A stretch of 64,000 nt of DNA from an uncultured bacterium (GCA_902779865.1 CACZDG010000007.1:8958-72957); one strand, 5' to 3'. Positions 47,206-61,331 are shown, counted from the first letter of the stretch. Translations and numbers: made by a program. Notes: generated by a model from the letters alone, not told the origin.

Positions 47206-47997
47206 ATGAAGAAACTCATTATTGGTGCTGCTGTTGCAACCATCGCTGCTGGTGCGTTCGCGGCGGCATGCAGTGAAGTTAAGGATTGTGCGGCTTGGGA
47301 TGTGAAGTTCAATCTCAAGACGCTCACCCCCAAGAAGACCAATTGCGGTAAGGATGCATGTGGTGAATCGCTCGGTTCGGTTTACTACCTTGATTCTGTT
47401 TCTCGCAAGATTGAAGGTTACATGTGGGCATGTGAGTATGATTGCGCGGAGAGCGATGAGTACTACATCACACTGTGGGATAAGAAGAACAAGAAGGCTG
47501 TTGTCGCTTATAGCGCAGAAGAAACTCAGACTGTTCCTGTCCCTGCCGATGATCTCCTCGTTTATGGCAAGAAGGCAACCAAGGTCGCTGGCACGTTCGT
47601 GTTCGAGGGGCTGATGGATGATGTCGGCGATGAGGCGTTCAACATTACGGCCGCAGGTATCAACGGCAAGTTCCAGAAGGGTGATAAGTGCTACATCAAG
47701 TCGCTGTCTGGCTATGCTGCTGGTAAGGTGAAGCTCTATGTGCCTACTGCCAAGACACCGAAGGGTTCGAAGGGTACTCTCTGCGAGGATCCTGAGCCTG
47801 TTGATCCTTGCGAGGATGTCCTTCTTCGTGCGGCGACCTTCTGCGATGCGTGCTGCTGGGAGACGTGGTGTGATGACACTTACGACTACGGTGAGACGCT
47901 TGTTCCGGCCGCTGGAACTTGGTCTATGAAGTACAACAAGAAGGTGTCCAAGGGGACGAAGTCGATGTCCCAGTTGATTCCTAGCTATGCTCTCTAA
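47206..47997 (+). CDS. Secreted cysteine-rich protein, family A copy 1 (paralog of 56720-57502)
   Basis: Signal peptide MKKLIIGAAVATIAAGAFAAA. 13 Cys by my count. Shares with copy 2 the blocks KIEGYMWACEYDC/KIKGVFWGCDC, CWETWC/CECAEGG, AAGTWSMKYNKK/ASGTWKLKYNAA and IPSYAL/FPSYVK. Confidence 0.7.
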   Translation: MKKLIIGAAVATIAAGAFAAACSEVKDCAAWDVKFNLKTLTPKKTNCGKDACGESLGSVYYLDSVSRKIEGYMWACEYDCAESDEYYITLWDKKNKKAVVAYSAEETQTVPVPADDLLVYGKKATKVAGTFVFEGLMDDVGDEAFNITAAGINGKFQKGDKCYIKSLSGYAAGKVKLYVPTAKTPKGSKGTLCEDPEPVDPCEDVLLRAATFCDACCWETWCDDTYDYGETLVPAAGTWSMKYNKKVSKGTKSMSQLIPSYAL

Positions 47998-48084
47998 TGA
48001 GGGTGTAAGGTTGTAACTTACAAAGTGGGGGGAGGTGGCAAAGGCTACTTCCCCCCATAATTGTAATACCTACAAGATACGCAC

Positions 48085-49131
48085 ATGTTAAAGTTACTCA
48101 CGACAGGTATTGTTGTATTTTTGATGTTGTTTGGTAGCGTGGGAATGGCTGCGCCAGTGCTTGAGCGTTTTATTCCTGTGAAGCCATCTTCTGGTATTGT
48201 TCTAGTACGTGTAAATGGGGTTGATATCACTCGAGCACAGTTGGACAGAAAACTTGACATGATGGTGGCCCTCTTGAAGAATAAAAAGAAAACTATGACT
48301 TCAGACGAAGTGGCAAAATTTAAGAAGAAGAATCTAATACCATTGAGTAACGCTCTCCTCTACCAGAAAATACTTGAAACTAATCTTGCCAGTTCAAATA
48401 TAATATCAAACGCGGCAGCGGAGAGAGAGGTGAAAAATGAGTTTCTTAGAAAATTTGGTAAACGAAAGCAATCATGGCAGGATTTGGTTGCGTATGTAAA
48501 GGGAACTGGGTTTGATAAGGATTTCAATGATAGATTTGCATTTGAGATTCGCCTTCGCAGTTTCTTTATGACAGTACATTCGAATCAGTATTATGTGACT
48601 CAGTCGGACATTGAAAAAGTAAAGGCAGATGTGTCAGCTTATAATAAGCGAGCAGCAGCGACAAATAAGGTAACACTTGCCTATGCCCAAAATATCTTGA
48701 AGAAGGCAAGATCTGGTGAAGATTTTGCAAAGTTGGCCAATCATTATTCACAAGACAAGGATCAGAATGATGGGGGAAGTTTGGGTGATTGCGATGAATC
48801 TGATTTTCTCGGAGGCGATCAGTATGTTTGGAAGATTTTAAATTCATTGAAAGTTGGGGATGTCAGTGATATCTTGCAGACGGAAGAAGGATATGTGATT
48901 TATAAGGTCGTTCGGCGTAACACGGCAGAGCAATCTCAAACTGGAAGCGCATCTTTGACATTGTCTAGAATCTTTTTTCGATGTGCATATTTATTTCCCG
49001 AGCAGACGGATGAAGAGTTAAGGGATGATGTTGAAAGAGAGAAGCGAGAAAAGTTGGCAATTGATGTTTACAAGGCGTTTCGCGCCCAAAGCAAGGTTTC
49101 TTATCCAAATGGCCCAGTAAGGGTAAAATGA
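48085..49131 (+). CDS. PpiC/parvulin-type peptidyl-prolyl isomerase (SurA/PrsA-like foldase)
   Basis: Signal or anchor MLKLLTTGIVVFLMLFGSVGMA. Parvulin block FAKLANHYSQDKDQNDGGSLGD...LKVGDVSDILQTEEGYVIYKV. The most AT-rich gene in the window. Confidence 0.8.
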   Translation: MLKLLTTGIVVFLMLFGSVGMAAPVLERFIPVKPSSGIVLVRVNGVDITRAQLDRKLDMMVALLKNKKKTMTSDEVAKFKKKNLIPLSNALLYQKILETNLASSNIISNAAAEREVKNEFLRKFGKRKQSWQDLVAYVKGTGFDKDFNDRFAFEIRLRSFFMTVHSNQYYVTQSDIEKVKADVSAYNKRAAATNKVTLAYAQNILKKARSGEDFAKLANHYSQDKDQNDGGSLGDCDESDFLGGDQYVWKILNSLKVGDVSDILQTEEGYVIYKVVRRNTAEQSQTGSASLTLSRIFFRCAYLFPEQTDEELRDDVEREKREKLAIDVYKAFRAQSKVSYPNGPVRVK

Positions 49132-49144
49132 AAGGTAAAGCTAA

Positions 49145-50395
49145 ATGAAACTGAAAACGGTAATCCTGACAATTGCATGTGCGGCTAGTAGTGTCGTATC
49201 TGCAGCATCCCTTAACGACGTTCAGTCGAATGTTGTACCTGGTGAATGGACAAGCAGTTATTCTGTAGCAAAGAAATATGCAGAAGACAATGGTGTGCCA
49301 ATGCTTGTTTTTTGGTCCAGCCCTGGATGTGCAAAATGCAGTAAAATGAAGGTTGCATGTAATACTGCTGAGTTTGTCACTTGGCGAAAAGCGAGAAAGT
49401 TAATCATGGTGTTTTCAGAGGGGGATTCGACCGTAAAGGCTTTTGCTAGAAATTCATCAGGGGATTATCCATATATGCGTCTTTATTGGCCTAAAGGTGG
49501 CGTTGATCTAAAGTTTACAGGTCGCTCAACCTCAATAAGAGCTTCGGGAAATACTTTACAGGCTCAACTCATGAACTACGTTGATGCAAATGTCAAGGCA
49601 TGGATTAGTGGTGGCGGTGATGCTGGTGGGGGCACAGAGGTGACACCAACTCCCACGCCCACCCCCACGCCCACTCCAGCAGATCTTTCTGCGTGGAAAA
49701 AAGCCCGTTTCCTCTACGGTTCATACTATACTAGCAATGGTGCGTTCGCTGGGCGCGTGGTGCTTACGGCTGGAAAGATTAATGCAAGGGGGGCCTCTAG
49801 AATCAAGGCTACGGTGATGGGATTCGATGGCCGGTCTAGGACATTTGGTCAGAAGTCTTTCACGGTGACTGGTACGACGACTGGTACACTGTCGAGTTCC
49901 GTAGGGACGTATGCATTCTCCATCAACGGTTCGTCGATTTCTGGCACTTTGACACGTGACGGCGTGGCATATTATGTAAAACCCGTGAAGACTGGGGGGA
50001 CATTGTCTGATGGGGCGTTCACCTTTAAACTCATCGATTATCCTGAGAAATGTGAAGGGTATCCGCTTATTCATGGTGCAAGTTATCTACCGATTTCGCA
50101 GTCCTTCACGTCCCGTTCGTCAAAGTGGTCTTTCGCGAGGCGGGGGGCGTTGCGTTACGTTACAAAAAGCGGCGACTTTGTCATGTCCGCTACGGATAAT
50201 CCTTCTGGCCTCAAGTTGTCATATAGAAGCACAAACGGCTATTTCAAGGGTACGTTCACGGTCTATGCCGCGCGTAATGGGAAGTATGTCAAGCGTTATT
50301 CAGCAAAGGTATCTGGTTTTATGGTTGGCAATTCCGGTGAGGGTGTTGTGACCATCAACAAAGTGGGTACGTTCAGCTGTACGATCACGCGCTGA
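49145..50395 (+). CDS. Secreted thioredoxin-fold (CxxC = CAKC) protein with TP-repeat linker and shared C-terminal module
   Basis: Signal peptide, VVPGEWTSSY, PMLVFWSSPGCAKCSKM, linker TPTPTPTPTPTP. C-terminus DNPSGLKLSYRSTNGYFKGTFTVYAARNGKYVKRYSAKVSGFMVGNSGEGVVTINKVG. Confidence 0.7.
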   Translation: MKLKTVILTIACAASSVVSAASLNDVQSNVVPGEWTSSYSVAKKYAEDNGVPMLVFWSSPGCAKCSKMKVACNTAEFVTWRKARKLIMVFSEGDSTVKAFARNSSGDYPYMRLYWPKGGVDLKFTGRSTSIRASGNTLQAQLMNYVDANVKAWISGGGDAGGGTEVTPTPTPTPTPTPADLSAWKKARFLYGSYYTSNGAFAGRVVLTAGKINARGASRIKATVMGFDGRSRTFGQKSFTVTGTTTGTLSSSVGTYAFSINGSSISGTLTRDGVAYYVKPVKTGGTLSDGAFTFKLIDYPEKCEGYPLIHGASYLPISQSFTSRSSKWSFARRGALRYVTKSGDFVMSATDNPSGLKLSYRSTNGYFKGTFTVYAARNGKYVKRYSAKVSGFMVGNSGEGVVTINKVGTFSCTITR

Positions 50396-50402: not shown

Positions 50403-52115
50403 ATGGACAGAAGGTTTATAATTCTGTCGCTTTTGGCCGGTTTGGTGCTATGCACCATCGGCCAGGAGTCGTCTTTTGTGCCCGTCAATGGGCAGATGTA
50501 TCGCATGCGGCAGCCTGACGGTGTTGTGCGCATGTTTTTGCGCGACAATGACGAGCCGAATCTCCTTCACGGCGAAGGAGGTTGGACCGCCGAGCTTGAC
50601 GGGCGAAAGACTTTGGTAATGAACGATGCCGATCAGGATAAGGATCGGCGCGGCTTTTTGTTCTTGAATGGTTATTTGCGGAAGCAATTGGTTGGCGACC
50701 GCGAGATTGACGTTCGAGTTCCGCCTCCTGGTAGCGATGCTAAAGCACTTGCAGAACTTTGGCCAGTAAAGGAGGCACGTTTGGTCGCGGCGGAAGCGCC
50801 GGACATTTGGAGCGGCGGTCCGCGCATTCGGCTGTGGTTTGACAATCCGAACAAGGCCGGCTTCCTTTTTGCGGAGATTGCGCTTGCGGCTCTTGCTCTG
50901 CTCTTTTGCAGGCCGGTTTGGCTGCGGATTGTCGGCGCGGCCGTATCGCTTGCGTCGTTTATCGGATTGGTGCAGACGTCTTCCCGAGGGGCGCTGCTTG
51001 CGTTCCTGTGCGGTGTCGCAGCAATTGGCGCAGTGCGCTTCAAAAGTGTGTTCACAGCTAAAAGGTTGCTTGTTGTCGCCGCTGTGATTGGCGTGGCCAT
51101 TGGATGTCTGTTCGCCTCTGGGCAGTTCGAGCGTCTGGGCAAGAATCTTTTCAATGAGGGGCAACGCGAAACGAGCCGCCTGACGGTGTGGAAGGAGGTT
51201 CCGCGTATGATGGTGGATGCTCCGGATGGATGGGGATTCGGACAATCGGCAAGAGCATACATCGATTGGTATCAACCACAGAGCGTATGCCTGCTGAAGA
51301 ATTTGATCAGCGACCATCTCACCTTTCTCGTGGAAGCTGGTTGGCCGTTGCGCTTTGCATACGTATTTCTTTGGCTAGCAATAGGTAGTGTGCTGGCATG
51401 GTTGTCCGTGCAAGGTGCATCGCCAGTCCCGATGGCCATTATTGCGGCATTTGCGGTTGCGGGCTGCTTCAATCCCGTTGTTTTTGTTCCAGAACTATGG
51501 GTGATTCCGGTAACGGCCGTTGTGTGTTTGGCAATATTTCGTTTTCATGACTGGTTTGCCAGGAAAACGCTTGTGCCAGTAGCCATTGCAGCTCTGCTCA
51601 CGATGCTTGCCGCCGTTGGCGTTTACATTTGGGGATCGGCGGTATCTCCGAAAGTGTCCGTTCACAAGACGGGTGGAGCCGTTTGCTTAAATGGCGAGAA
51701 TCCGTCAATCTGGGTTGTTGACGACGACTATGTGTTGCATGGTGGCTATTGGTGGTTGGCTGGCCGCGAACTGCGTGATTCGCTTGAATCGCTGAAGACT
51801 TCTTCTTCGCTTGGGTACGTTCGCTCCGTGGCCGATTTGCCTAAGGATACAGACGTGATTGTGCTGCTTGGTGAGGCTGGCCGTGATTTCCTTGAACTGC
51901 AAAGCCGACCGGGTGCGAAGAAGGTTGTGTTCGTTTCGCCTCCATTTCCATGGCAGACCGTTCCTCTGTCGTTGTTGTCCACAAGCGAGGTATCGTTTGT
52001 GCTTGGTGGGGTAGCGGCGCGGCGTATTGCGGGAGAGGCATCGCCTCCTTCGTGGGTGACGATTGTGCCAGGCTCTGAACTTTATGTTCCCAACTGGCTC
52101 AAATTTGTGCTATAA
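50403..52115 (+). CDS. O-antigen ligase / Wzy_C-family membrane protein with extra N- and C-terminal domains
   Basis: LVQTSSRGALLAFLCGVAAIG, R..VWKEVPRMMVDAPDGWGFGQ and SDHLTFLVEAGWPLRF fit the O-antigen-ligase loop and His motif. About 150-aa N-terminal and about 170-aa C-terminal non-membrane extensions. Confidence 0.65.
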   Translation: MDRRFIILSLLAGLVLCTIGQESSFVPVNGQMYRMRQPDGVVRMFLRDNDEPNLLHGEGGWTAELDGRKTLVMNDADQDKDRRGFLFLNGYLRKQLVGDREIDVRVPPPGSDAKALAELWPVKEARLVAAEAPDIWSGGPRIRLWFDNPNKAGFLFAEIALAALALLFCRPVWLRIVGAAVSLASFIGLVQTSSRGALLAFLCGVAAIGAVRFKSVFTAKRLLVVAAVIGVAIGCLFASGQFERLGKNLFNEGQRETSRLTVWKEVPRMMVDAPDGWGFGQSARAYIDWYQPQSVCLLKNLISDHLTFLVEAGWPLRFAYVFLWLAIGSVLAWLSVQGASPVPMAIIAAFAVAGCFNPVVFVPELWVIPVTAVVCLAIFRFHDWFARKTLVPVAIAALLTMLAAVGVYIWGSAVSPKVSVHKTGGAVCLNGENPSIWVVDDDYVLHGGYWWLAGRELRDSLESLKTSSSLGYVRSVADLPKDTDVIVLLGEAGRDFLELQSRPGAKKVVFVSPPFPWQTVPLSLLSTSEVSFVLGGVAARRIAGEASPPSWVTIVPGSELYVPNWLKFVL

Positions 52116-52166: not shown

Positions 52167-52655
52167 ATGAAAATTAGAAAATTCGTTGTGTGGGCGATGG
52201 TTGTTATGCTGCCGATCGCCGTTTTCTCGAAATCCTCGCTTAAGACTTTGGTGCTTGGCGATGATATCGTGTTGGAGCCTGAAAGTTCCTTGACGTTTAC
52301 TTTGGCTGGAGACTTGGAAGACCTTGCATTCCCCTACGAGTTGCTTCCATTCTCGCCCGACGGCGTTGATGTGGAATGGACCGGCAAGAAGTTCAAGACG
52401 CCCAAGGCAGGAAAGGTTAAGTACATCAAGAGCGACGAGGACTTCGGCGACTCGAAGGATTCGGACAATCCGTGTGGGCTGAAGATCAGCATCAACAAAA
52501 AGACTGGTAAGGTGAGCGGCTCATTCAAGGTCTATACGGCAAAGACTGAAAAGAAGCTTAAAACTTACACTGCCAAGGTTTCAGGGTATGTTGGGAGTGA
52601 GTCGCTTACGGTAACGATCAAGAAGATCGGGACGGTTGCGGCTTCGCTAGAATAG
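52167..52655 (+). CDS. Small secreted protein consisting essentially of the shared C-terminal module
   Basis: Signal peptide MKIRKFVVWAMVVMLPIAVFS. The block PDGVDVEWTGKKFKTPKAGKVKYIK...DNPCGLKISINKKTGKVSGSFKVYTAKTEKKLKTYTAKVSGYV...IKKIG aligns with the C-termini of 49145, 54426 and 57517. Confidence 0.7.
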   Translation: MKIRKFVVWAMVVMLPIAVFSKSSLKTLVLGDDIVLEPESSLTFTLAGDLEDLAFPYELLPFSPDGVDVEWTGKKFKTPKAGKVKYIKSDEDFGDSKDSDNPCGLKISINKKTGKVSGSFKVYTAKTEKKLKTYTAKVSGYVGSESLTVTIKKIGTVAASLE

Positions 52656-52683: not shown

Positions 52684-53805
52684 ATGCGGTGGAGTTGTCA
52701 TCTTTTTGCGATTGTTTTTCTGACGGCGCTATCGTCGGCTGCTTTCAGTATTCCAATCTCATGCGGGGAAGTTGTTCCGGGTGAGTGGAATGCTGATTTT
52801 TCAGCCGTTCTTGAAAGGTCCAATCGTGAGCATTTGCCAATGCTGCTTGTTCGCGCCAGCGAGGGGTGTCCTCTTTGCGCGCGATTGAATCAAGCGTTGG
52901 ACGGGGAGGCCTTTTCGCAATGGCAGAAAGACCGCAAGTTGTTGATGGCGTATATCCGCACAAGTGGCCAGAATGCAGTCTCTAAGCGGGTGCAGAACTT
53001 CATCAAGTCCGTTTCGGGGGAGTTGCCAGAATTCCCGTATGTATGCGTTTACTGGCCCAAAGCCGATGGTACGACGAATAGTGTAGCTTTTGCCGGACGT
53101 CGCGGCGAGATGGGAACTGAACGCAAGGATTTGCTCTCCGTTGAGTTCATGACGGCCGTTGATAGAACTATTCAGGATTATTTGGCGCAGGATTCGCAGC
53201 ATGCAACGATTGAACAAATCCTCGCGAAAAGCGTAAAGAAAATTGCCTGCGCAAAAGCGGGGGCAGCGGGTTCCGTGGTCATGCGTCCCGAATCTGGAGT
53301 CTTGAATGAAGGAGGGAAAGTGATCCTTGAGGCACGGGCGGCTTCGGATGCGCTTTTTGTTGGATGGGAAGACCCTCAGGGGCGTTTTGTCGAATGGAAC
53401 TATCGTCTGGTCGTATCGGGGCGCATGCCTGCCGGCACTTATACTGCGCGTTTCCGTCCAAAGGAGGGATGCCCCCCACCGGCATTGACAACAGTGACGA
53501 CTTCCTTGTGTGTGCAAGTTGGTCGGAGGTTTAATTTATCGGTACCAGTCGATCCGACCAGTCGTCCGGTTCATTTCCGTGCTGCCCAGCGCTTGCCTAG
53601 GGGGGTGAAGCTTGACAAGGTTACTGGTGAACTTACCGGCTTGTTTCATAAAGAAGGTATTGTGCGTATTACAATTCTGGTTGTGGGATCGGACAAAGCA
53701 AACACTACAAAGTCCTATTCTGTCAACTTGACGATAGCCCCGAAGAGACGGCAATCCGTTTCAACTGCTATTGTGGACGAAAAAGCGGTGATGAGTTCGG
53801 AATGA
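52684..53805 (+). CDS. Secreted thioredoxin-fold (CxxC = CPLC) protein with Ig-like repeat domains
   Basis: VVPGEWNADF, PMLLVRASEGCPLCARL, YVCVYWPKADG parallel 49145. C-terminal GWEDPQGRFVEW (bacterial repeat-like) and RLPRGVKLDKVTGELTG (putative Ig domain). Confidence 0.65.
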   Translation: MRWSCHLFAIVFLTALSSAAFSIPISCGEVVPGEWNADFSAVLERSNREHLPMLLVRASEGCPLCARLNQALDGEAFSQWQKDRKLLMAYIRTSGQNAVSKRVQNFIKSVSGELPEFPYVCVYWPKADGTTNSVAFAGRRGEMGTERKDLLSVEFMTAVDRTIQDYLAQDSQHATIEQILAKSVKKIACAKAGAAGSVVMRPESGVLNEGGKVILEARAASDALFVGWEDPQGRFVEWNYRLVVSGRMPAGTYTARFRPKEGCPPPALTTVTTSLCVQVGRRFNLSVPVDPTSRPVHFRAAQRLPRGVKLDKVTGELTGLFHKEGIVRITILVVGSDKANTTKSYSVNLTIAPKRRQSVSTAIVDEKAVMSSE

Positions 53806-54425: not shown

Positions 54426-56642
54426 ATGATATGTGTTTCTAAAAAGGTTTTCGCGGCGTTGGCAATTTGCCAGCTGTTTGCAGTCAACGAGTATGCCATG
54501 GCATACGGCATTGCGGAAGTGAAAGACGTGCGCGTCGCACCGCTTGTTTCCTCCAAATGGTCGGTTGGAGATTTCGGCGGGGCAAATGCGTTCAATTTTT
54601 ATACTCCAAAGAACTATTCTTGCGGGTGTGGAATTACGGCGTATGCACAGATTATGCGTTTTTGGCGTGCGCCAAATGCGGTAGCCGCGAAGAAATTTCA
54701 GTGCTGGCTTGATGGAGTCCCGGGAAGTTATTCGACTAGAGGGGGCGCATACGCTTGGGACGAAATGCCTTTCACGGGCGAAGAGTGCGTCAATGACGCC
54801 CAACGCGAGGCGCTTGGACATCTTGCTTTTGATCTAGGAGTGGCTTCGCATGTGTCATGGGCCAATATAAAGTATTCATATAGTTATGGAGTCCTTTCGG
54901 TAGCCGCATTGCAAGATTATTTCGGGTATGCGTCGGCTCGCACTCTTATGCGTGGAGCCTCTAATGGAAACATTTTCAAGGATGAAGACTATCGGAATGC
55001 TTTGCTTGCGAGCCTTGACGCCGGTATGCCTGCGGTAATCGGAGTTAGGACCGTTGACAACCAAGGGCATCAAGTAGTCGTTGACGGGTATGGGTTTGAC
55101 GATGCAGGCAAACTATTATGCCACTTGAATTTTGGGTGGAATGGAGCCGCTGACAATTGGTACAATCTTATGGAGAATGCTTTTGCCGCAGGTGACGGCA
55201 TTGATGAGTTTGTATTCGCCCACATTGACGAAATAGCCTACAACATTCATCCAAGCAAGAAGGGAGAGGTTATTTCGGGACGTGTTTTGGATAAGGCTGG
55301 GAATCCTGTCAAAAACATTTCAGTTAGATTTGGACTGGCTGGGAAGGCCTCGTCGGTTGAGGAGACGCTTACGGATGAGAATGGCATCTACAGTTTCCGT
55401 TTTACAGGGAAGGGCAAGTATGTTGTCTCGGTGGCTGATGAGAATCTAGGGCAGGCGGAACGAACGATTACTATTTCAAAGGATGGAGCAAGTGTGGCCT
55501 TGGTTCCGTCGTTGGACTTCTCCGTCCCGTTCACCAGTTTCAAACTTTACGCAAACGCCATTGGTACCGTAGGTAACCGATGGGGAGAGGATCTGGTGCT
55601 TAAGGAAGGCTCGTCTGCACCCATTCCCCCGCCTACAACCGGTCCCATTTTCAGCGCCGCTGCCACAATTGATGGTTACCTGACGGATGCTGGCGGAAAA
55701 ATGGCTGGAACCATTCAGGTGAAGGCGGGAAAGGCCGACAAGGCCGGTCAAAGCAAGATGACGGCTAACGTCATGATAAATGGACAGGCAAAGAAATGGT
55801 CATTCAAGGGCGTTATGGCGGCAGATGGTTCGGCAAGCCTCTCTTGTGCGGGGCAACCGGCTCTGAATCTTGCGTTTGATGAAAAGGGAATGAGCGGTAA
55901 GCTTGGAGGGCGTGATGTCGTAGGCGTGCGGAATTTGTTCGCATCGAAAGTCAAGACAGAAGTCAATGAGGCCAATGCAGCACTGAAAACGTTGTTGGGT
56001 ACGTTGAACGTAGCATCGGATGGTACGTTCCTGACTGTGACGATTGCGGCCAAGGGCAAGGTCAAGGTGACCGGAATGATTGGCGAGAAGAAGGTTTCGA
56101 CAACAAGCCAGCTTCTGCTTGGTGAGACCCAGCACGTCATACCTGTGTTGGTGACGAAACCTACTATGTTGGCGTTCCTTGTCAACATGGCACCGAACGG
56201 GAGCGTGATCAGCGTAGAGGGGTTGAAAACATGCAAGGCTGGCAAGGTTGTTGGTTTGCGTTCAAACGCCAAGTTCCATGTGGATACTTCGGCGGAACTT
56301 TGGAAATCGTTGCAGGGGAACGTTATTACGGGGGTGTTGCCTGATGGCCAGCCTGTGCCCGTGTCTGGCAGTAAGTGGATTCTTGACAAAGCGGGGAAGG
56401 TGGTGTACAAAAAAGGCACGACTGATTTGGATGATACGAAGTTCGGCAAGAACCCTTCTGCGTTGAAACTGACCTACAAGGCGAAAGACGGGACATTCAA
56501 GGGGGCGTTCAAGGTATATTGTGAGGTGAAGGGTAGGCTAAAAGCAACGACCGTTAATGTGACGGGTGTGTTGATTGGCGACAGGGGTTATGGTTCGGCT
56601 TCCATCAAAAAAGTTGGGAGTGTGCCGATAACGGTTGAATAG
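54426..56642 (+). CDS. Peptidase C10 (streptopain/SpeB-like cysteine protease) with carboxypeptidase-regulatory-like domain and shared C-terminal module
   Basis: Catalytic Cys context YSCGCGITAYAQIMRFW. His context GHQVVVDGYGFD. HLNFGWNGAADNWYNL matches the SpeB NWGWGG block. ISGRVLDKAGNPV...TDENGIYSF. C-terminus NPSALKLTYKAKDGTFKGAFKVYCEVKGRLKATTVNVTGVLIGDRGYGSASIKKVG. Confidence 0.82.
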   Translation: MICVSKKVFAALAICQLFAVNEYAMAYGIAEVKDVRVAPLVSSKWSVGDFGGANAFNFYTPKNYSCGCGITAYAQIMRFWRAPNAVAAKKFQCWLDGVPGSYSTRGGAYAWDEMPFTGEECVNDAQREALGHLAFDLGVASHVSWANIKYSYSYGVLSVAALQDYFGYASARTLMRGASNGNIFKDEDYRNALLASLDAGMPAVIGVRTVDNQGHQVVVDGYGFDDAGKLLCHLNFGWNGAADNWYNLMENAFAAGDGIDEFVFAHIDEIAYNIHPSKKGEVISGRVLDKAGNPVKNISVRFGLAGKASSVEETLTDENGIYSFRFTGKGKYVVSVADENLGQAERTITISKDGASVALVPSLDFSVPFTSFKLYANAIGTVGNRWGEDLVLKEGSSAPIPPPTTGPIFSAAATIDGYLTDAGGKMAGTIQVKAGKADKAGQSKMTANVMINGQAKKWSFKGVMAADGSASLSCAGQPALNLAFDEKGMSGKLGGRDVVGVRNLFASKVKTEVNEANAALKTLLGTLNVASDGTFLTVTIAAKGKVKVTGMIGEKKVSTTSQLLLGETQHVIPVLVTKPTMLAFLVNMAPNGSVISVEGLKTCKAGKVVGLRSNAKFHVDTSAELWKSLQGNVITGVLPDGQPVPVSGSKWILDKAGKVVYKKGTTDLDDTKFGKNPSALKLTYKAKDGTFKGAFKVYCEVKGRLKATTVNVTGVLIGDRGYGSASIKKVGSVPITVE

Positions 56643-56683: not shown

Positions 56684-56686
56684 AGG

Positions 56687-56692
56687 TACAAT
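56687..56692 (+). promoter_or_regulatory. -10 box TACAAT upstream of cysteine-rich protein copy 2
   Basis: TACAAT 27 nt upstream of the ATG at 56720. AAAGGAG Shine-Dalgarno. Confidence 0.4.
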
Positions 56693-56719: not shown

Positions 56720-57502
56720 ATGAAAACGATAACAGTGTTTGCAGTTGCAGTTCTTTCGACATTTGCCGTCTTTGCTGACGCGCAGGTGTATGAGATGACG
56801 ATTACTCTTAAGTCCACAACTGCCGCATCTGGTAAAATCACGCCAATAGTGTGCGATACGCCGAAGCCGGAAGTCAATTTGTACCGCAAGCAGTCCACCG
56901 TAAAGATAAAAGGGGTGTTTTGGGGATGTGATTGCGAGACGATTGCCGAACCGCAGTTTGTAACGTCTGCGGAGGCTACCTATGGTTATGTCTTCTGGAA
57001 TGAAACGACTCACAAGGTTCTTGATGTTGAATTTGGCTGGCATATACTCAACCGCATTGACAAGAAGCTGAAGAAAGCAGAAGGCGCATGGATGATCGGC
57101 AGTTTGGATTCAGATGTTTTTCTTACGGGGGCTGGTTTCGGAACGGTCAAGGATGATGTCGCCAAGGCGTCGTGTACGATCAATTCCGTTATTCTAACAC
57201 CCATGAGCGGTTCCTGCGCTGGTTGGTTGTCGCTTCCTTCTGTCACAGTCAAGGGAACGGCTGAAGATTGCCCTAAATGTGGCGAGGTTACGCCTGGTAC
57301 CGATGATGTTGAGACTGTTGCACCGGCTTGGTCGTTATGCGAATGCGCCGAAGGTGGCGAATACACTGCTGCATCAGGCACATGGAAACTCAAGTACAAT
57401 GCAGCGGCCTCAAAGAAGTGGAAGAATGCTGATGCATCTCTTTCAATAACGAAGGCATATTCATTCCCGTCATACGTTAAGACGTTTATAGAATCGTTGT
57501 AA
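56720..57502 (+). CDS. Secreted cysteine-rich protein, family A copy 2
   Basis: Signal peptide MKTITVFAVAVLSTFAVFADA. Paralogous blocks shared with 47206-47997 (see that entry). Confidence 0.7.
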   Translation: MKTITVFAVAVLSTFAVFADAQVYEMTITLKSTTAASGKITPIVCDTPKPEVNLYRKQSTVKIKGVFWGCDCETIAEPQFVTSAEATYGYVFWNETTHKVLDVEFGWHILNRIDKKLKKAEGAWMIGSLDSDVFLTGAGFGTVKDDVAKASCTINSVILTPMSGSCAGWLSLPSVTVKGTAEDCPKCGEVTPGTDDVETVAPAWSLCECAEGGEYTAASGTWKLKYNAAASKKWKNADASLSITKAYSFPSYVKTFIESL

Positions 57503-57516: not shown

Positions 57517-59328
57517 ATGAGAATCGCTTTCAGGGCATCGATCATGGCTGCGGGCGCGCTTGTCGCGTCCGTAGTCTGGGGGTTTGAATACAACGTGCGT
57601 CAACCGTCGGACTACCTTAAGCCGACGTGGCATTCGAAGGATACGGCCCCTGGTGTCTGGACTCTCAATGTTGATGATGCCTTGGCTCGTGCCAAGGCCG
57701 CTGGCAAGTGTACGATTCTCATGATGACGGCTTCGTGGTGGTGTCCATATTGCGAGACGTTTGAGGACATGGTTCTTTCGTCGAAAGCATGGAAGAACTA
57801 TGTGGCGGAGAAAGGGTTCTACCTCGCGATGCTGGATTTCCCGTATCGCAATGACGTGCCCGCAGGTCAGGAGTGGAAGAGTTGGCGCCCCGATCTTGGA
57901 AAGGGATGGGGCTTCAAGTGTTGGCTTATGAATCAGACTTATCTTGCGGAGATTGGCCTTACGCAAGAGGAAGGTCTGGACGCAATCATGGATCTGTACA
58001 AGCGTCAAGGTGAGCTTGCCACGGAGTCTGCACAACTGATAACGATGAAAAACTGGAGGCAGACGAAAGAGTTTACATACGGCAAGGTCGGTTATCTATC
58101 CTTGATCGTAATTGGACCAGATGGGAAAGAACGTGGGCGCATGTCGTTCCCGTGGTACAAAACAGAGTCTGTGACTGTTTCAGAGGCGCAAGAGTACGTC
58201 TTTCAATCGCTTGAGCAAATCATGGCTGGCACGTGTGAGATTTGCACCGATCCTGCTGCAGGCGTCCCAGTTACTGACAAGGCACAGGAGTACGACGGCT
58301 GGTTGGCCGATGGTTCAGGCGCGATTGCAGGCTTCGTACAGTTCAAGACATCGCGACGCATGGCTTCTGGCGCGGTTAAGGTCAGTGGTAGCGTTACAAT
58401 CTCAGGTAAGAAGACTACCTTCAAGCCAGTAGTTGCGTTCAATTTGAACCAGCCGATCGTTCTTGTGAATAAGGGTAAATCTGTAAACGTTTCGTTTGGC
58501 GAACTCGGTCTAAGTGGAGACGTGATGGTGGATGGCGTCCGATACACGATTGGAGGAGGAGGACGGAACGTGTTCAAAGCTAAGGATACTGCGGCTATGA
58601 GACGTCGGGTCTCAGCGCCGTCAGGCAATTGGAGTGTTGTCCTTAAACCTTCCGACAAGGATGCTCCGAATCGATACGCGCGCGGGTATGGCTCATTGAC
58701 GGTGCAGTTGCGCAGCAACGGTATTGGGAAAATTATTGGTTTTCTTGGCGATGGTACAAAGGTGAGCGTCAAATGCCAGGCAATTGTCGGCGACGATGGC
58801 GTATCTTGCTTGCCTGTATGTGCAAACCTTTACGGGAAAAGGGGTGGTCTGGGTTTCGTGTTATGGTTCAAGAACGGTCGTTTGCTCACGGCAACGGCTA
58901 TCAGGCCTTGGAAGGCCGTTGGTCGCTATGCGTCTTTTATAGCAAACTACGTCCCGAATTTCACTATGTCATCAGGTATTGGCGAGCCGTTGAACGAGAT
59001 GGATCTGACGATTGAGGACTTTGACGAAACGGCGCTTCTACGTGCGCTTCCGCTCGCTTGGTCTCCTTCTGAAGACATTGTAGAGGTCAAGGGAACAAAA
59101 TGGATTGGCACAAAGGCGTCTTACTTTTCGGCGAGGTGTACGGTGAGTTCGGGCCTGTTGAAGGGCAATATGACATTTTCGACGGTTCGTCCGAACGGGG
59201 CGATTAAAAAGGTTAAAGGGACTTTTACCGGTGTAATAATGGGGGGATCTGGATATGGTACGGTTTTTGTGGCAGGAGAGGGGACTTGGGCCGTCAAAAT
59301 CGCCGTTTGTGGAAGTTGCAGCGAGTAA
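57517..59328 (+). CDS. Secreted thioredoxin-fold (CxxC = CPYC) protein with beta-rich middle region and shared C-terminal module
   Basis: APGVWTLNV, CTILMMTASWWCPYCETFE. The middle YDGWLADGSGAIAGFVQFKTSRR parallels YGSYYTSNGAFAGRVVLTAGK (49145) and IDGYLTDAGGKMAGTIQVKAGK (54426). C-terminus SSGLLKGNMTFSTV...KVKGTFTGVIMGGSGYGTVFV. Confidence 0.7.
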   Translation: MRIAFRASIMAAGALVASVVWGFEYNVRQPSDYLKPTWHSKDTAPGVWTLNVDDALARAKAAGKCTILMMTASWWCPYCETFEDMVLSSKAWKNYVAEKGFYLAMLDFPYRNDVPAGQEWKSWRPDLGKGWGFKCWLMNQTYLAEIGLTQEEGLDAIMDLYKRQGELATESAQLITMKNWRQTKEFTYGKVGYLSLIVIGPDGKERGRMSFPWYKTESVTVSEAQEYVFQSLEQIMAGTCEICTDPAAGVPVTDKAQEYDGWLADGSGAIAGFVQFKTSRRMASGAVKVSGSVTISGKKTTFKPVVAFNLNQPIVLVNKGKSVNVSFGELGLSGDVMVDGVRYTIGGGGRNVFKAKDTAAMRRRVSAPSGNWSVVLKPSDKDAPNRYARGYGSLTVQLRSNGIGKIIGFLGDGTKVSVKCQAIVGDDGVSCLPVCANLYGKRGGLGFVLWFKNGRLLTATAIRPWKAVGRYASFIANYVPNFTMSSGIGEPLNEMDLTIEDFDETALLRALPLAWSPSEDIVEVKGTKWIGTKASYFSARCTVSSGLLKGNMTFSTVRPNGAIKKVKGTFTGVIMGGSGYGTVFVAGEGTWAVKIAVCGSCSE

Positions 59329-59343
59329 TTGGGGATTATTGCC

Positions 59344-60525
59344 ATGAAGAAGTATGCAGTTTTTATATTGATTTCGCTGGTTGCGATTGTGGCTGTGGTG
59401 TGGTTTGTGGCGCTGCCGCGTGGCGCGGAAGAGACGCCGCAAACAGAACATGTCGATGGCATAAAGAGTGGACGGCGTTTAGTCCGCCGCACTGGGCGGA
59501 ATCCGACCAATGTGCGTGAAAAAGTGCGAGGTATCGTTTCAACCGAACCCAAGAATGGGCGCCGTCGTCCACGACCAGACGCGGAGATGTTTGAACATCT
59601 GCGCGGGGTGGATCGTCGGCTTGCCGAGAGTATTCAGAAAGCGCTGGATGACGACAATTATAGTGGCGTTATGGAATCCGTTGATGCCGCCATGCGTTCG
59701 AAGAATGCCGAAGTACGCTCGCACCTAGTCGATGCCTTGGGTTGGTTTGGGGTCGAGGCGTTGCCCGAGCTCACGGTGCTGATGGCTGATCCGGATGATG
59801 AAGTGGCCGAATCGGCGCAAGCGCAGTGGACAGTTGCCCTGGCCGAAATTGAGAATCCAGGCAAACGCATGCAGATCGGTTTATCGGTGCTTGGGACGTT
59901 TTCTAATAAGGACATGTTGGATGGTATTATCGGAGAGGTTTCTAACGCCGCCGTTGAATACATTGAGGAAGAACCGGACGATTCAGATGAAGCGGAGAAT
60001 GCAGAGCGTCAAAGTACTAGGCGCATAGAGGTGGTTCAGGCTCTTCTTGATATTATGAGTGGCGATCTGCCAGTATGCGCTAAAGCCGCTGCCGAGGCAT
60101 ACGAAGATATTACGGGACACGAATGGATCAGCATTGACGAGGCAGAGCTTTACTTGCAGAACCCTGATGACTATGAACTGCCCGAAGATCGTGACGATGA
60201 CGATAATAAACGGATTCAGCCGCCAGTTGAGCCGCCAGTCGAACAGCCCGCTGAGCAGCCTGTTGAACAGCCAGTAGAGCAACTCGGCGAGCAGCCAGTA
60301 GTGCAGCCCGTTGAGCAACCCGTTGAACAACCAGGTGAGCAGCCTGTTGAACAGCCCGTAGAGCAGCCCGTTGAACAGCCTGGTGAACAACCAGTGGTGC
60401 AGCCAGTAGAGCAACCTGTTGAACAGCCAGGCGACCAGCAACAGCCTGTTGATACGCCGGAGCAAGACGACGATGACGATGGTGTTGTTATAGGACCAGA
60501 TGGCAAACGTATTGGTAATAGGTAA
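59344..60525 (+). CDS. Membrane-anchored HEAT-like repeat protein with acidic (E/V)QP(V/G) tandem-repeat tail
   Basis: N-terminal TM helix. LVDALGWFGVEALPELTVLMADPDDEVAESAQAQW is HEAT-like. The tail holds about 18 copies of a 4-aa EQPV/EQPG unit. Confidence 0.65.
   Translation: MKKYAVFILISLVAIVAVVWFVALPRGAEETPQTEHVDGIKSGRRLVRRTGRNPTNVREKVRGIVSTEPKNGRRRPRPDAEMFEHLRGVDRRLAESIQKALDDDNYSGVMESVDAAMRSKNAEVRSHLVDALGWFGVEALPELTVLMADPDDEVAESAQAQWTVALAEIENPGKRMQIGLSVLGTFSNKDMLDGIIGEVSNAAVEYIEEEPDDSDEAENAERQSTRRIEVVQALLDIMSGDLPVCAKAAAEAYEDITGHEWISIDEAELYLQNPDDYELPEDRDDDDNKRIQPPVEPPVEQPAEQPVEQPVEQLGEQPVVQPVEQPVEQPGEQPVEQPVEQPVEQPGEQPVVQPVEQPVEQPGDQQQPVDTPEQDDDDDGVVIGPDGKRIGNR
60216..60446 (+). repeat. 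12-nt periodic coding tandem repeat (GAGCAGCCNGTN)n
   Basis: Reads QPPVEPPVEQPAEQPVEQPVEQLGEQPVVQPVEQPVEQPGEQPVEQPVEQPVEQPGEQPVVQPVEQPVEQPG. There is a higher-order repeat of about 60 nt. Confidence 0.85.
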
Positions 60526-61331
60526 TGAAGAAAACGGTCATTTCTTGCCTCGTAGGCCTACTTTGCGTGTCGGCGATTGTTATTGTCGTGTTGCGGCACG
60601 ATGGCGCGTCAAGTAAGGCAGATATTGATCCTGGTGACCGCGATGAAGTTTCTTCGCGCAACCCAGGCAAGAAATTTTCAGTGACTCCGGCTTCATCGCA
60701 GCGTAAGCGCCATAAAGTGGCTAATCCGTCAAAACCGGTTTTGGATTTAGGTGTTGATGATGACGATGATGAGGAAGACAGGCGGACGCCAGCCGAGAAG
60801 GCGCTTGCAGAACGCATAGAGAAGGCTCTTGACGAAGAAGATCTTGAAATGGCGGTGTCATGCGCAGACGAGGCCCTGTCATGCGCGGTCACCGAGATTC
60901 GTCAGGCGATGGTTGAAACACTTGGCTGGTTTGGCGAGAAAGCGCTACCTGAACTCACGCCATTTCTTGCGGATGCCGATGAAGACGTTCGCGACAGCGC
61001 GATGAACGAATGGACAACGGCATTGTCATCCATTGAGGATGAAAAAGCAAAAATCGGGGTTGTGGAACTTGCGATGGGCGTCCTTAAGGATGAGGATGCA
61101 TTGGAGTCGATTTCGAGCGAATATATCGGCGTGGACGAGAAACTGGCCGTTGAGTCGCTGTCTAGGATCATTACGGACGGGAAGTCGGCTGCTGGCGTCG
61201 AAAAGGCCAAGGAGACTTACGAGTTTGTAACTGGCGACGAATGGGCGGGTGTTGATGAGGCCGCACGCTGGATTGCCGAAGAATACGAACCGCCAAACCA
61301 AGCTGATGCTTCTGGTGGCAATCAACGGTGA
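60525..61331 (+). CDS. Membrane-anchored HEAT-like repeat protein (tandem paralog of 59344-60525)
   Basis: MVETLGWFGEKALPELTPFLADADEDVRDSAMNEW and TYEFVTGDEWAGVDEAARW align with the upstream paralog. TAATG overlap. Confidence 0.65.
   Translation: MKKTVISCLVGLLCVSAIVIVVLRHDGASSKADIDPGDRDEVSSRNPGKKFSVTPASSQRKRHKVANPSKPVLDLGVDDDDDEEDRRTPAEKALAERIEKALDEEDLEMAVSCADEALSCAVTEIRQAMVETLGWFGEKALPELTPFLADADEDVRDSAMNEWTTALSSIEDEKAKIGVVELAMGVLKDEDALESISSEYIGVDEKLAVESLSRIITDGKSAAGVEKAKETYEFVTGDEWAGVDEAARWIAEEYEPPNQADASGGNQR

What the first reader, a model, noticed from the sequence alone, without database searches (positions are those of the whole stretch)
47206..61331. 14-kb low-GC block of secreted and membrane proteins: candidate undescribed extracytoplasmic folding, maturation or display system
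Between two sets of glycopolymer genes lies a contiguous, same-strand run of 14 genes. Almost all have signal peptides or TM anchors, and most have no product I can name.

The recognisable parts make a coherent theme:
- three secreted CxxC thioredoxin-fold proteins (49145, 52684, 57517);
- a MauE-like CGCFG membrane protein (53967);
- a parvulin PPIase (48085);
- a C10 SpeB-like cysteine protease (54426);
- an O-antigen-ligase-like membrane protein (50403);
- two cysteine-rich paralogs (47206, 56720);
- two tandem HEAT-like paralogs (59344, 60525).

Composition differs sharply from the flanks. My hand counts of single 60-nt lines give 22/60 GC at 48241 and 27/60 at 55081, against 42/60 at 9301.

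I see two readings. The first is a dedicated oxidative-folding plus proteolytic-maturation pathway for Cys-rich exported proteins. The second is a family of surface proteins attached or displayed through the flanking glycopolymer machinery. I do not recognise this gene combination as a described system.
Basis: partly seen in the sequence, partly recalled or inferred. Interest (0 to 1): 0.85.

Follow-up and report, generated by a model that had tools for sequence, protein, structure and literature searches.

The report
Hypervariable envelope-protein operon of rumen Kiritimatiellae
This 14-kb block is a real, conserved but fast-evolving operon of exported proteins from uncultured rumen bacteria; it most likely builds a disulfide-rich cell-envelope structure with its own folding enzymes, and some related genomes carry two versions and appear to switch between them by flipping a promoter.

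Summary
Window 47206-61331 carries 12 same-strand genes plus one 49-aa ORF (not 14). All products are exported or membrane-bound. GC is 0.50 against 0.60 in the flanks.

The block is not a chance juxtaposition. A cassette recurs in many rumen Kiritimatiellae contigs: Cys-rich protein, parvulin PPIase, CxxC thioredoxin-fold protein, Wzy_C, a 160-aa protein, a 600-aa WWCPxC protein and a HEAT protein. It also sits at the same chromosomal site in another species. MauE and the C10 protease are accessory, not core.

Cassette proteins diverge far more than flanking genes (36-67% against 68-95% identity) and are mosaic.

- a ~100-aa basic C-terminal domain found only on cassette proteins;
- a ~290-nt conserved, covarying 5' leader RNA with no Rfam match;
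- in four related loci, a tyrosine recombinase and the promoter lying between two divergent cassettes, with the repeat boundary exactly at a palindrome present in the window leader.

The two core proteins give confident models with no PDB fold match.

Best reading: a variable envelope-protein operon with dedicated oxidative-folding enzymes, probably coupled to a glycan. Function is inferred, not shown.

The parts
46879..46907 (+). Promoter: TTGCAT, 17-nt spacer with TG, then TACAAT, preceded by a T-run
   Evidence: Read from the sequence. The same T-run/CTTGCR/TAYAAT arrangement is conserved at the same distance in 13 or more related loci. It is absent from the promoterless copies in the recombinase loci.
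46915..47205 (+). About 290-nt conserved, structured 5' leader RNA (long form)
   Evidence: Mean column identity is 79% over 20 distinct sequences, with long invariant blocks, while g01 is only about 50% identical. On a 59-pair structure, 97.3% of cells pair and 12 pairs show compensatory changes. 0/500 shuffles reach this, and slid controls pair <= 46%. MFE z-score is -2.38. No Rfam family matches.
46938..46952 (.). Palindrome CGGACA-TTG-TGTCCG inside the leader; presumed recombinase core site in relatives
   Evidence: In L006, L008, L035 and L048 the homology between promoter-bearing and promoterless leader copies begins at this palindrome. The window has a single copy.
47206..47997 (+). g01: secreted Cys-rich (13 Cys) all-beta protein; first gene and family founder
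   Evidence: No Pfam or NCBIfam hit. It has 63 homologs and 369 clusters at 50% identity, none named. The AF2 model has pLDDT 83.5 and no PDB or BFVD fold match. A g01-family gene follows the leader in about 20 loci.
48085..49131 (+). g02: membrane-anchored parvulin PPIase (PrsA/SurA-like)
   Evidence: PF00639 1.7e-12 and PF13616 1.6e-11. It is always the second gene of the cassette. GC is 0.40.
49145..50395 (+). g03: secreted thioredoxin-fold (GCAKC) head, TP linker, then stalk and the basic C-terminal domain (CTD, nt 50084-50395)
   Evidence: Thioredoxin_7 2.3e-5. GCxxC is conserved in all homologs. CTD HMM hit 2.7e-18.
50403..52115 (+). g04: Wzy_C (O-antigen-ligase superfamily) membrane protein with extra N- and C-terminal soluble domains
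   Evidence: PF04932 5.9e-11, above cut-off. Hydropathy shows about 9-10 TM segments. R and H residues are invariant in a 9-sequence alignment. Present in most cassettes.
52167..52655 (+). g05: small Lys-rich secreted protein that consists essentially of the CTD
   Evidence: 157 homologs, all small and unnamed. AF2 pLDDT 84.8, with no PDB fold match. It is the best-conserved cassette protein, at up to 84% identity between cassettes.
52684..53805 (+). g06: secreted thioredoxin-fold (GCPLC) protein with Ig-like domains
   Evidence: Homologous to the g03 head (blastp 1e-15). He_PIG 1.6e-4. Orthologs at 71-77% identity in L022 and L008.
53816..53965 (+). 49-aa single-TM ORF immediately before MauE
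   Evidence: Translation. Called as a gene on identical contigs.
53967..54401 (+). g07: MauE, a DsbB-like disulfide generator (accessory)
   Evidence: PF07291 2.1e-25. It has a CGCFG motif and 4 hydrophobic segments. The CXC-FG active site and DsbB complementation are reported in bioRxiv 10.64898/2026.03.05.709764. Absent from all other cassettes examined.
54426..56642 (+). g08: C10 cysteine protease, CarboxypepD_reg, stalk and CTD (nt 56334-56642) (accessory)
   Evidence: PF01640 9.1e-32. Interpain and streptopain hits in the PDB. GCGITAYAQ and GHQVVVDG motifs. CTD hit 3.9e-15.
56720..57502 (+). g09: second, divergent g01-family Cys-rich protein (9 Cys)
   Evidence: E 8e-13 against the g01 profile. 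g09-type proteins are the first gene after the leader in other cassettes.
57517..59328 (+). g10: secreted thioredoxin-fold (WWCPYC) head plus a ~350-aa stalk/CTD shared with g08
   Evidence: Thioredoxin_7 6.4e-6. DsbH model 1.6e-8. Chlamydial DsbH 2JU5 2.8e-5. WWCPxC is conserved in all homologs. g08 402-737 aligns with g10 248-597.
59344..60525 (+). g11: N-terminally anchored, very acidic HEAT-repeat protein with PVEQ repeats
   Evidence: HEAT_2 1.6e-5. pI 4.3, net charge -46. Paralog of g12.
60525..61331 (+). g12: N-terminally anchored acidic HEAT-repeat protein
   Evidence: HEAT_2 9.5e-5. pI 4.4. A HEAT protein closes most cassettes.
61335..62750 (+). WbaP-like initiating phosphoglycosyl transferase, 3 nt after g12; probably the same transcript
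   Evidence: PF02397 8.4e-64. TIGR03025 350.9 bits, above cut-off. The same gene directly follows the cassette in L053, at 74% identity.

Best explanation
The block is one member of a family of hypervariable envelope-protein operons specific to gut and rumen Kiritimatiellae.

Proposed sequence of events:
1. A strong conserved promoter and a ~290-nt structured leader drive the operon. Its first product is an acidic, all-beta, 13-Cys secreted protein (g01, with a second copy g09), probably the main structural or exposed component.
2. All products leave the cytoplasm by Sec.
3. A dedicated membrane-anchored PrsA-like PPIase (g02) and cassette-encoded CxxC thioredoxin-fold enzymes (g03, g06, g10) fold and oxidise the Cys-rich proteins. 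In this species they are re-oxidised by an added MauE (g07), which acts like DsbB.
4. The redox enzymes, the optional C10 protease (g08) and the small g05 share a basic C-terminal domain found only in this system. This domain is proposed to dock them to the same structure or to an anionic glycopolymer.
5. The Wzy_C protein (g04), together with the WbaP-like transferase directly downstream, is proposed to couple the proteins to an undecaprenyl-linked glycan, either by glycosylating them or by ligating them to it.
6. The cassette diversifies by recombination and lateral exchange. In some genomes a tyrosine recombinase appears to flip the promoter between two complete alternative cassettes. That would give antigenic variation, presumably against phages, predators or host antibody.

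Shown here: co-conservation, gene order, conserved catalytic motifs, the cassette-specific C-terminal domain, hypervariability and mosaicism, the structured leader, and the switch architecture in relatives.

Inferred: cellular location, substrates, the role of Wzy_C, the role of the C-terminal domain, and the selective agent.
For: - Co-conservation and order.
- Orthologous locus with the same LicD/TagD flank in L010 and L036.
- Leader followed by a g01-family gene in about 20 loci.
- CxxC strictly conserved in both thioredoxin families; C10 dyad present.
- g01 family keeps 13 Cys and an invariant LVPxYAL C-terminus.
- MauE has the CGCFG active-site motif of DsbB-replacing MauE proteins.
- The C-terminal domain is always C-terminal, occurs only in cassette proteins, and is basic (pI 9.4-10.5), while heads are acidic.
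- Flanks are 68-95% identical to L010 but cassette proteins only 36-67%. Different genes are closest to different cassettes.
- LysRS stays 88-96% identical across relatives in which g01 is about 50%.
- GC and GC3 deviate from the flanks.
- Recombinase plus promoter lie between divergent cassettes. The inverted repeats are the leader, and their boundary is at the palindrome.
- 14 of 31 metagenome contigs end 19-40 nt upstream of the leader motif. Further contigs break inside the leader.
- Bac_transf lies directly downstream in the window and in L053.
Against: - There is no experimental or expression evidence.
- g01 and g05 have no fold match, so 'structural component' is a guess based on position, conservation pattern and composition.
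- No outer-membrane translocation system is encoded in the cassette, so surface exposure is unproven. The products could all be periplasmic.
- Wzy_C is missing from both L008 cassettes, so glycan coupling cannot be essential.
- The window itself has no recombinase and no second core site. Phase variation is shown only as an architecture in relatives, and both orientations were never observed in one population.
- Contig breaks could reflect repeats or strain mixtures rather than inversion.
- Thioredoxin_7 hits are just below the Pfam cut-off.
Confidence: 0.5

Rival explanations
1. Glycopolymer-processing module. The block would be the serotype-specific periplasmic part of an O-antigen or LPS locus. 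Wzy_C would act as polymerase or WaaL ligase. The unknown proteins would be polysaccharide-binding, chain-length or export accessories rather than a protein structure.
For: The block lies inside an LPS-like cluster with WaaP-like kinases, GT1, LicD and TagD upstream and WbaP and WecA-like genes downstream. Low GC, mosaicism and hypervariability are typical of O-antigen loci. Wzy_C is in most cassettes. The basic C-terminal domains could bind an anionic polymer.
Against: No glycosyltransferase, flippase or sugar-synthesis gene lies inside any cassette, so the cassettes cannot specify a glycan structure. Two cassettes lack Wzy_C. The conserved core is a Cys-rich protein plus a PPIase plus CxxC enzymes, which is protein-folding logic. 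There are no hits to Wzz, Wza, Wzi or Gfc families.
Confidence: 0.15
2. Outward-acting digestive or adhesive apparatus. Surface-tethered disulfide reductases and a C10 protease on a common stalk and anchor would attack disulfide-rich host or feed glycoproteins such as mucins. g01 would be the scaffold or adhesin.
For: The architecture is enzyme head, linker, shared stalk and C-terminal domain. The WWCPxC head resembles a reductase-type thioredoxin, the chlamydial DsbH. A C10 protease is present. From general knowledge, Kiritimatiellae are glycan degraders.
Against: The protease is optional. No glycoside hydrolases or sulfatases lie in any cassette. No electron donor for a reductase (DsbD-like) is encoded. 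A dedicated PPIase and a leading Cys-rich protein fit assembly better than digestion. Hypervariability is unusual for catabolic enzymes.
Confidence: 0.15
3. General housekeeping oxidative-folding (Dsb-like) locus of the cell that merely sits next to envelope genes.
For: MauE together with an adjacent thioredoxin-fold protein resembles a DsbB/DsbA pair.
Against: MauE is unique to this species' cassette. Housekeeping systems are not duplicated as alternative cassettes under a flip switch. They also do not diverge at 36-67% while flanks stay at 68-95%.
Confidence: 0.07
4. Chance juxtaposition in a laterally acquired low-GC island, or a mobile element or prophage remnant.
For: GC and GC3 are atypical. 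Integrase genes lie next to cassettes in relatives.
Against: Gene order is conserved across many loci. The chromosomal site is the same in another species. There are no PHROG or PADLOC hits. The integrase lies between inverted leaders with the promoter, not at an island border.
Confidence: 0.03

Closest known systems
Bacteroides thetaiotaomicron BT1927 phase-variable S-layer and B. fragilis Tsr-controlled outer-surface protein loci (PMC4611039)
   Same: A gut anaerobe's surface-protein locus is governed by a promoter on an invertible segment, with an adjacent tyrosine site-specific recombinase.
   Different: In Bacteroides a 256-bp element with 22-bp inverted repeats gives ON/OFF control of one gene. 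Here, in relatives, a 1.4-1.8-kb segment carries both the recombinase and the promoter. It lies between two complete ~10-kb cassettes, so the switch would be A/B rather than ON/OFF. The repeats are 135-330 nt and coincide with a structured leader. The proteins share no homology.
Campylobacter fetus sap locus (own knowledge; not read here)
   Same: A single promoter on an invertible element is flanked by oppositely oriented cassettes that share conserved 5' regions. Inversion changes which surface protein is made.
   Different: The sap cassettes are single S-layer genes, and inversion uses homologous recombination. Here the cassettes are whole multi-gene operons and a dedicated tyrosine recombinase is encoded inside the element.
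MauE/MauD and DsbB/DsbA oxidative-folding pairs (bioRxiv 10.64898/2026.03.05.709764)
   Same: g07 is a MauE with the CGCFG active-site motif. It lies just downstream of a secreted CxxC thioredoxin-fold protein (g06), separated only by a 49-aa ORF.
   Different: Here the pair is embedded in, and optional for, a variable envelope operon. The thioredoxin-fold partners carry Ig-like or stalk domains.
Chlamydial cysteine-rich outer-membrane complex with DsbH/DsbA/DsbB (PMC6752827 abstract; otherwise own knowledge)
   Same: A PVC-superphylum envelope depends on disulfide-bonded Cys-rich proteins and dedicated periplasmic thioredoxin-fold enzymes. The g10 head is most similar to DsbH.
   Different: No Pfam hit to OmcA, OmcB or MOMP families. 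The DsbH similarity is far below the family cut-off (34.8 against 190 bits).
Type IX secretion cargo with a C-terminal domain anchored to anionic LPS (own knowledge)
   Same: Diverse enzymes, including a cysteine protease, share a ~100-aa C-terminal beta domain. An O-antigen-ligase-family gene and an anionic glycopolymer locus are linked.
   Different: No T9SS genes are present. The C-terminal domain does not match TIGR04183 or Por_Secre_tail. The fold search found no match for g05, which is essentially this domain.
PglL/TfpO protein O-oligosaccharyltransferases of the Wzy_C superfamily (own knowledge)
   Same: A Wzy_C membrane enzyme is encoded beside its possible protein substrates and an initiating phosphoglycosyl transferase.
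   Different: No PglL_A domain hit. No sequence match to any solved structure. The acceptor is unknown.
Dedicated foldases in fimbrial or pilus operons, e.g. SrgA in the Salmonella pef operon and PrsA-type foldases (own knowledge)
   Same: A surface-structure operon carries its own disulfide oxidoreductase or PPIase for its subunit.
   Different: Here two to three oxidoreductases plus a PPIase occur per cassette. They are fused to a system-specific docking domain. There is no chaperone-usher, sortase or type IV pilus machinery.

Membership tests
MauE (PF07291), DsbB-like disulfide generator | Pfam score above the gathering cut-off | tested here: met
   89.9 bits against 27
MauE (PF07291), DsbB-like disulfide generator | CXC active site followed by conserved F-G | tested here: met
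   g07 has IDCGCFGISGG. The motif definition comes from the preprint.
MauE (PF07291), DsbB-like disulfide generator | Can replace DsbB and re-oxidise a thioredoxin-fold partner | not testable with these tools
   Needs complementation of an E. coli dsbB mutant
Peptidase C10 (streptopain/interpain) | Pfam score above cut-off, and a catalytic Cys and His | tested here: met
   111.3 bits against 26. GCGITAYAQ and GHQVVVDG motifs. PDB interpain 1.7e-9.
Wzy_C / O-antigen-ligase superfamily | Pfam score above cut-off, and a polytopic membrane protein | tested here: met
   42.8 bits against 31.7. About 9-10 hydrophobic segments.
Wzy_C / O-antigen-ligase superfamily | Assignment to WaaL, Wzy or PglL-type protein glycosylase | tested here: inconclusive
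   No PglL_A hit. Only weak IctB and polymerase hits. No PDB sequence match even with a profile.
Thioredoxin-fold thiol-disulfide oxidoreductase | Family model above cut-off | tested here: inconclusive
   Thioredoxin_7 scores 24.9 and 26.7 bits against a cut-off of 27. The DsbH model scores 34.8 against 190.
Thioredoxin-fold thiol-disulfide oxidoreductase | Conserved CxxC active site | tested here: met
   GCxxC in 17 g03/g06-type homologs and WWCPxC in 9 g10-type homologs
Parvulin PPIase (PrsA/SurA-like foldase) | Rotamase domain above cut-off, with an N-terminal anchor | tested here: met
   48.6 bits against 21.7. N-terminal hydrophobic segment.
T9SS C-terminal sorting domain | Match to TIGR04183 or Por_Secre_tail | tested here: not met
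   No such hit at E <= 0.1 for g03, g05, g08 or g10
Invertible-promoter (inverton) switch | Promoter between inverted repeats with a nearby site-specific recombinase, in the window | tested here: not met
   No inverted repeat around the promoter, no second core site and no integrase in the 64 kb
Invertible-promoter (inverton) switch | The same architecture in related loci | tested here: met
   L006/L013, L008/L009, L035 and L048
Invertible-promoter (inverton) switch | Both orientations present in one population | not testable with these tools
   Needs read mapping. Only indirect evidence is available: contigs break at the leader.
Known RNA family (Rfam 15) | Covariance-model match to the leader | tested here: not met
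   0 hits at gathering threshold. Best hit E = 2.1, 16 bits.
Structured cis-regulatory RNA (generic) | Base pairs kept by compensatory changes beyond controls | tested here: met
   12 pairs and 38 cells with changes on both sides. 0/500 shuffles reach this. Slid controls are much lower. Caveat: the sequences are closely related.
Chlamydial Cys-rich outer-membrane complex proteins | Homology of g01 or g09 to OmcA, OmcB or MOMP | tested here: not met
   No Pfam or NCBIfam hit of any kind for g01 or g09

The most novel reading that the evidence does not exclude
The cassette would encode a previously unrecognised kind of bacterial envelope structure. It would be a disulfide-locked coat or appendage built from new-fold beta proteins (g01/g09 and g05). 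Redox enzymes and a protease would dock onto it through a system-specific basic C-terminal domain. A Wzy_C enzyme would couple it covalently to a glycan. Its expression element would serve two purposes: the same conserved sequence acts as a tyrosine-recombinase crossover site in DNA and as part of a novel structured regulatory leader in RNA. This would allow whole-operon antigenic switching.
Probability: 0.3. Interest if true: 0.85.

Novelty: new variant of a known kind. Interest (0 to 1): 0.68.

Why it matters
Kiritimatiellae are abundant in the rumen and gut but almost uncultured, and nothing is known about their cell surface. This locus gives a concrete and widespread handle on it: a marker leader sequence, a first-gene protein family with 369 clusters, and a cassette-specific domain.

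If the model holds, it would be:
- the first surface-variation system described in this class;
- an example of whole-operon A/B switching by a promoter flip;
- a natural context for the newly proposed MauE disulfide pathway in strict anaerobes;
- a source of two new protein folds and one new structured leader RNA.

Surface variation of this kind usually reflects phage or host pressure, so the cassettes may be the phage-receptor or antigen determinants of these bacteria.

Tried and rejected
- Rfam at gathering and at permissive thresholds found no family for the leader.
- PHROGs and PADLOC gave no phage or defence signal. The single PADLOC hit falls in the PVEQ low-complexity repeat of g11.
- Foldseek of g01 against PDB and BFVD, and of g05 against PDB, found nothing at E <= 0.001. 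Only weak beta-barrel, LolA or lipocalin-like resemblances with TM <= 0.3 appeared.
- Profile-profile comparison of g01 against g05 showed them unrelated (probability 2.9%).
- Wzy_C, as a single sequence and as a 9-sequence profile, found no relevant match among PDB sequences.
- A search of the window for an integrase, a second cassette or a second core site found none.
- The consensus promoter/terminator scan was uninformative, with counts equal to shuffles. It also missed the conserved promoter.
- Literature searches for Kiritimatiellae together with invertible promoters or Cys-rich surface proteins found nothing relevant.
- Cluster look-up for names returned none.
- g01 as a lipoprotein: rejected. 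The residues before the conserved Cys (AFA-x-A/V/P-C) fit signal peptidase I, not a lipobox.
- A leader peptide starting at the invariant ATGAAAGTTG: rejected. The short-form leaders have ACG there.
- TP-rich linkers as conserved glycosylation sites: not conserved among homologs.
- Low GC as a family trait: rejected.
- An apparent loss of MauE in L001 is only a gene-calling difference. The DNA is identical.
- I could not find the same invertible segment in both orientations.

Full report
OBSERVATION

The region 47206-61331 holds 12 closely packed (+)-strand genes. I label them g01 to g12. A 49-aa single-TM ORF at 53816-53965 brings the count to 13, not 14.

Every product starts with a hydrophobic signal or anchor, or is polytopic.
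- parvulin PPIase (g02);
- Wzy_C (g04);
- MauE with CGCFG (g07);
- C10 protease with an intact Cys/His dyad (g08);
- three CxxC thioredoxin-fold proteins (g03 GCAKC, g06 GCPLC, g10 WWCPYC);
- two HEAT paralogs (g11, g12);
- two Cys-rich proteins (g01, g09), which a profile shows to be distant homologs (E 8e-13).
These rest.

Block GC is 0.503 against 0.602 for the rest of the window. All 14 one-kb windows lie below 0.534 (Mann-Whitney p = 4e-8). GC3 is 0.375-0.64 against 0.64-0.82 in flanking genes.

The flanks are LPS- or glycopolymer-type genes. Upstream lie WaaP-like kinases, a deacetylase, GT1, TagD, LicD and a second TagD. Downstream lie WbaP-like and MraY/WecA-like transferases, then Lnt.

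The DNA is 100% identical in three independent assemblies. Housekeeping LysRS is 88-90% identical to proteins named Kiritimatiellae. Samples are ruminant gut metagenomes.

THE BLOCK IS A CONSERVED MODULE

Homologs of g01 (63; 369 clusters at 50% identity in 1.84 billion representatives; none named) and of g05 (157) lead to contigs with the same gene order. The order is:
1. g01-type Cys-rich protein;
2. PPIase;
3. thioredoxin-fold protein with the C-terminal domain (about 420 aa);
4. Wzy_C;
5. g05;
6. WWCPxC protein of about 600 aa;
7. HEAT protein.

L010 carries the cassette at the orthologous chromosomal site, with the same Phytase-like/APH/kinase/TagD/LicD/TagD genes upstream. The C10 protease occurs in only some cassettes. 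MauE occurs in none of the others. Both L008 cassettes lack Wzy_C. A WbaP-like transferase follows the cassette directly in the window and in L053.

HYPERVARIABILITY

Against L010, flanking proteins are 68-95% identical but cassette proteins only 36-67%. The window cassette is mosaic:
- g02, g03, g05, g06 and g09 are closest to the L008-left or L022 cassettes (58-84%);
- g08, g10 and g11 are closest to L010 (65-67%).

LysRS stays near 90% identical in relatives whose g01 is about 50%. Cassette GC varies from 0.46 to 0.63 between loci. The low GC here therefore reflects this cassette's history, probably lateral exchange, and is not a property of the family.

A SYSTEM-SPECIFIC C-TERMINAL DOMAIN

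g03, g05, g08 and g10 end in a shared ~100-aa domain. g08 and g10 share about 340 aa of stalk plus this domain.

An HMM of the domain finds it only in cassette proteins, and always at the C-terminus, both in the window and in all loci. It is basic (pI 9.4-10.5). The enzyme heads are acidic, and g11 and g12 are extremely acidic. It does not match the T9SS C-terminal domain models.

STRUCTURES

g01 (pLDDT 83.5) and g05 (pLDDT 84.8) give confident all-beta models. Neither has a significant match in the PDB, and g01 has none in BFVD. They are unrelated to each other.

The g01 family keeps 13 cysteines. That odd number hints at one intermolecular bond. It also keeps a nearly invariant C-terminal LVPxYAL.

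PROMOTER AND LEADER

The promoter is TTGCAT, a 17-nt spacer with TG, then TACAAT, at 46879-46907. It lies behind a T-run and about 300 nt upstream of g01.

The intervening leader is far better conserved than the proteins. Mean column identity is 79% over 20 distinct sequences. A motif from it retrieved 9 GTDB species genomes, all gut or rumen PVC MAGs, and 31 metagenome contigs. A long form of about 290 nt and a short form of about 165 nt exist.

On a 59-pair model, 97.3% of cells pair and 12 pairs carry compensatory changes. For example, GCGGG/CCCGC becomes GCAAG/CTTGC. No shuffle out of 500 reaches this, and slid controls pair <= 46%. RNAalifold found 10 compensatory pairs on its own. The MFE z-score is -2.38. 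Rfam has no match.

A g01-family gene follows the leader in about 20 distinct loci.

RECOMBINASE SWITCH IN RELATIVES

In L006/L013, L008/L009, L035 and L048 a Phage_integrase-family gene lies between two divergent cassettes, or next to a promoterless one.
- The two leaders, with the first codons of the g01-type genes, are inverted repeats: 215 nt at 100% identity in L006, and 136 nt at 90% in L008.
- Only one side carries the promoter. The other side abuts the 3' end of the recombinase gene.
- In all four loci the homology boundary falls at the palindrome CGGACA-TTG-TGTCCG, or CGGACAGTATGTCC in the short form. The window has this palindrome at 46938-46952.
- The promoter faces the right cassette in L006 and the left one in L008 and L035.

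This is the architecture of a promoter-carrying invertible element that would select one of two operons.

Two pieces of indirect evidence come from assemblies. First, 14 of 31 metagenome contigs end 19-40 nt upstream of the motif. Second, other contigs break inside the leader. Both fit a repeat or structural heterogeneity at that point. I did not see both orientations of one element.

The window itself has no recombinase and no partner site.

MECHANISM

The steps below combine what is shown with what is inferred.

1. All products are exported.
2. The PrsA-like PPIase and the CxxC proteins are core, and their active sites are invariant. The first product is Cys-rich. A dedicated folding and oxidation service for g01 and g09 is therefore the most economical reading.
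3. MauE proteins with a CXC-FG site replace DsbB in E. coli (bioRxiv 10.64898/2026.03.05.709764). g07 has CGCFG and follows the thioredoxin-fold g06. In this species it plausibly supplies oxidising power, which would be useful in the reducing rumen.
4. The head, linker, stalk and C-terminal domain layout, with a domain specific to the system, suggests docking to a common structure or polymer. The basic charge, the glycerol-phosphate/LicD genes upstream, and the Wzy_C plus WbaP pair suggest a link to an anionic glycan. The link could be binding, glycosylation or ligation.
5. Mosaic hypervariability and the switch point to an exposed, selected structure.

None of steps 2 to 5 has been tested experimentally.

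RIVALS

- A polysaccharide-processing module is weakened by the lack of any glycosyltransferase or flippase in the cassettes, and by cassettes without Wzy_C.
- An outward-acting digestive apparatus is weakened by the optional protease and by the lack of glycoside hydrolases or a reductant source.
- A housekeeping Dsb system is contradicted by cassette duplication and divergence.
- Chance juxtaposition or a mobile island is refuted by synteny and by the absence of phage or defence hits.

COMPARISON AND NOVELTY

The regulation resembles Bacteroides invertible promoters with adjacent tyrosine recombinases (BT1927 S-layer, PMC4611039) and the C. fetus sap promoter flip (own knowledge). It differs in toggling between whole operons and in using a structured leader as the repeat.

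The enzymes belong to known families. g01, g05, the C-terminal domain and the leader have no described relatives. I rate the finding a new variant of a known kind, namely a variable surface or envelope operon with dedicated foldases. A substantial chance remains that the structure itself is new.

Noticed in passing
window 53816-53965: A 49-aa single-TM ORF (MKRVFQYFNWWVVMGTIAIAVVLGILNNIRVYEEQRVNWFGGPVVESEE) ends 1 nt before the MauE start codon. It could be a small MauE partner subunit.
   Followed up: partly
window 56660-56692: The 78-nt gap before g09 contains a hairpin followed by a T-run, overlapping a TTGACT-17-TACAAT promoter-like site. The second Cys-rich gene may have its own transcriptional control.
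   Followed up: no
window ~60200-60470 (g11): A long PVEQ/PVEQP tandem repeat makes gene callers skip g11 on identical DNA; L001 calls a minus-strand ORF instead. It also produces a spurious PADLOC 'REase_II' hit.
   Followed up: partly
metagenome loci L023-L047 and L057-L059: 14 of 31 metagenome contigs carrying the leader motif end 19-40 nt upstream of it. Three further contigs break inside the leader. This points to an assembly break point just at or upstream of the palindrome.
   Followed up: partly
L014 3489-7166 (= L026): A 1225-aa C10-type protein with the cassette C-terminal domain lies immediately upstream of, and in the same direction as, a promoter/leader/g01 unit. This suggests tandem cassettes or cassette remnants.
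   Followed up: no
L031 5600-6200: The promoter and leader are the same as in L006 (99.5% over 221 nt), but only a remnant of the recombinase gene lies upstream. It may be a switch that has become fixed.
   Followed up: no
window 20249-22468: A 739-aa fusion of a Ser/Thr protein kinase domain with an FGE-sulfatase (formylglycine-generating enzyme-like) domain.
   Followed up: no
window 34278-36348: An OmpR-type response regulator and a HAMP histidine kinase lie just upstream of the LPS-like gene cluster that contains the cassette. They are possible regulators of the envelope locus.
   Followed up: no
window 48085-49131 (g02): The PPIase gene is the compositional extreme (GC 0.40, GC3 0.375). 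Its closest homolog, in the L008 left cassette at 58% aa identity, lies in DNA of GC about 0.64. Different cassettes therefore have very different compositional histories.
   Followed up: partly
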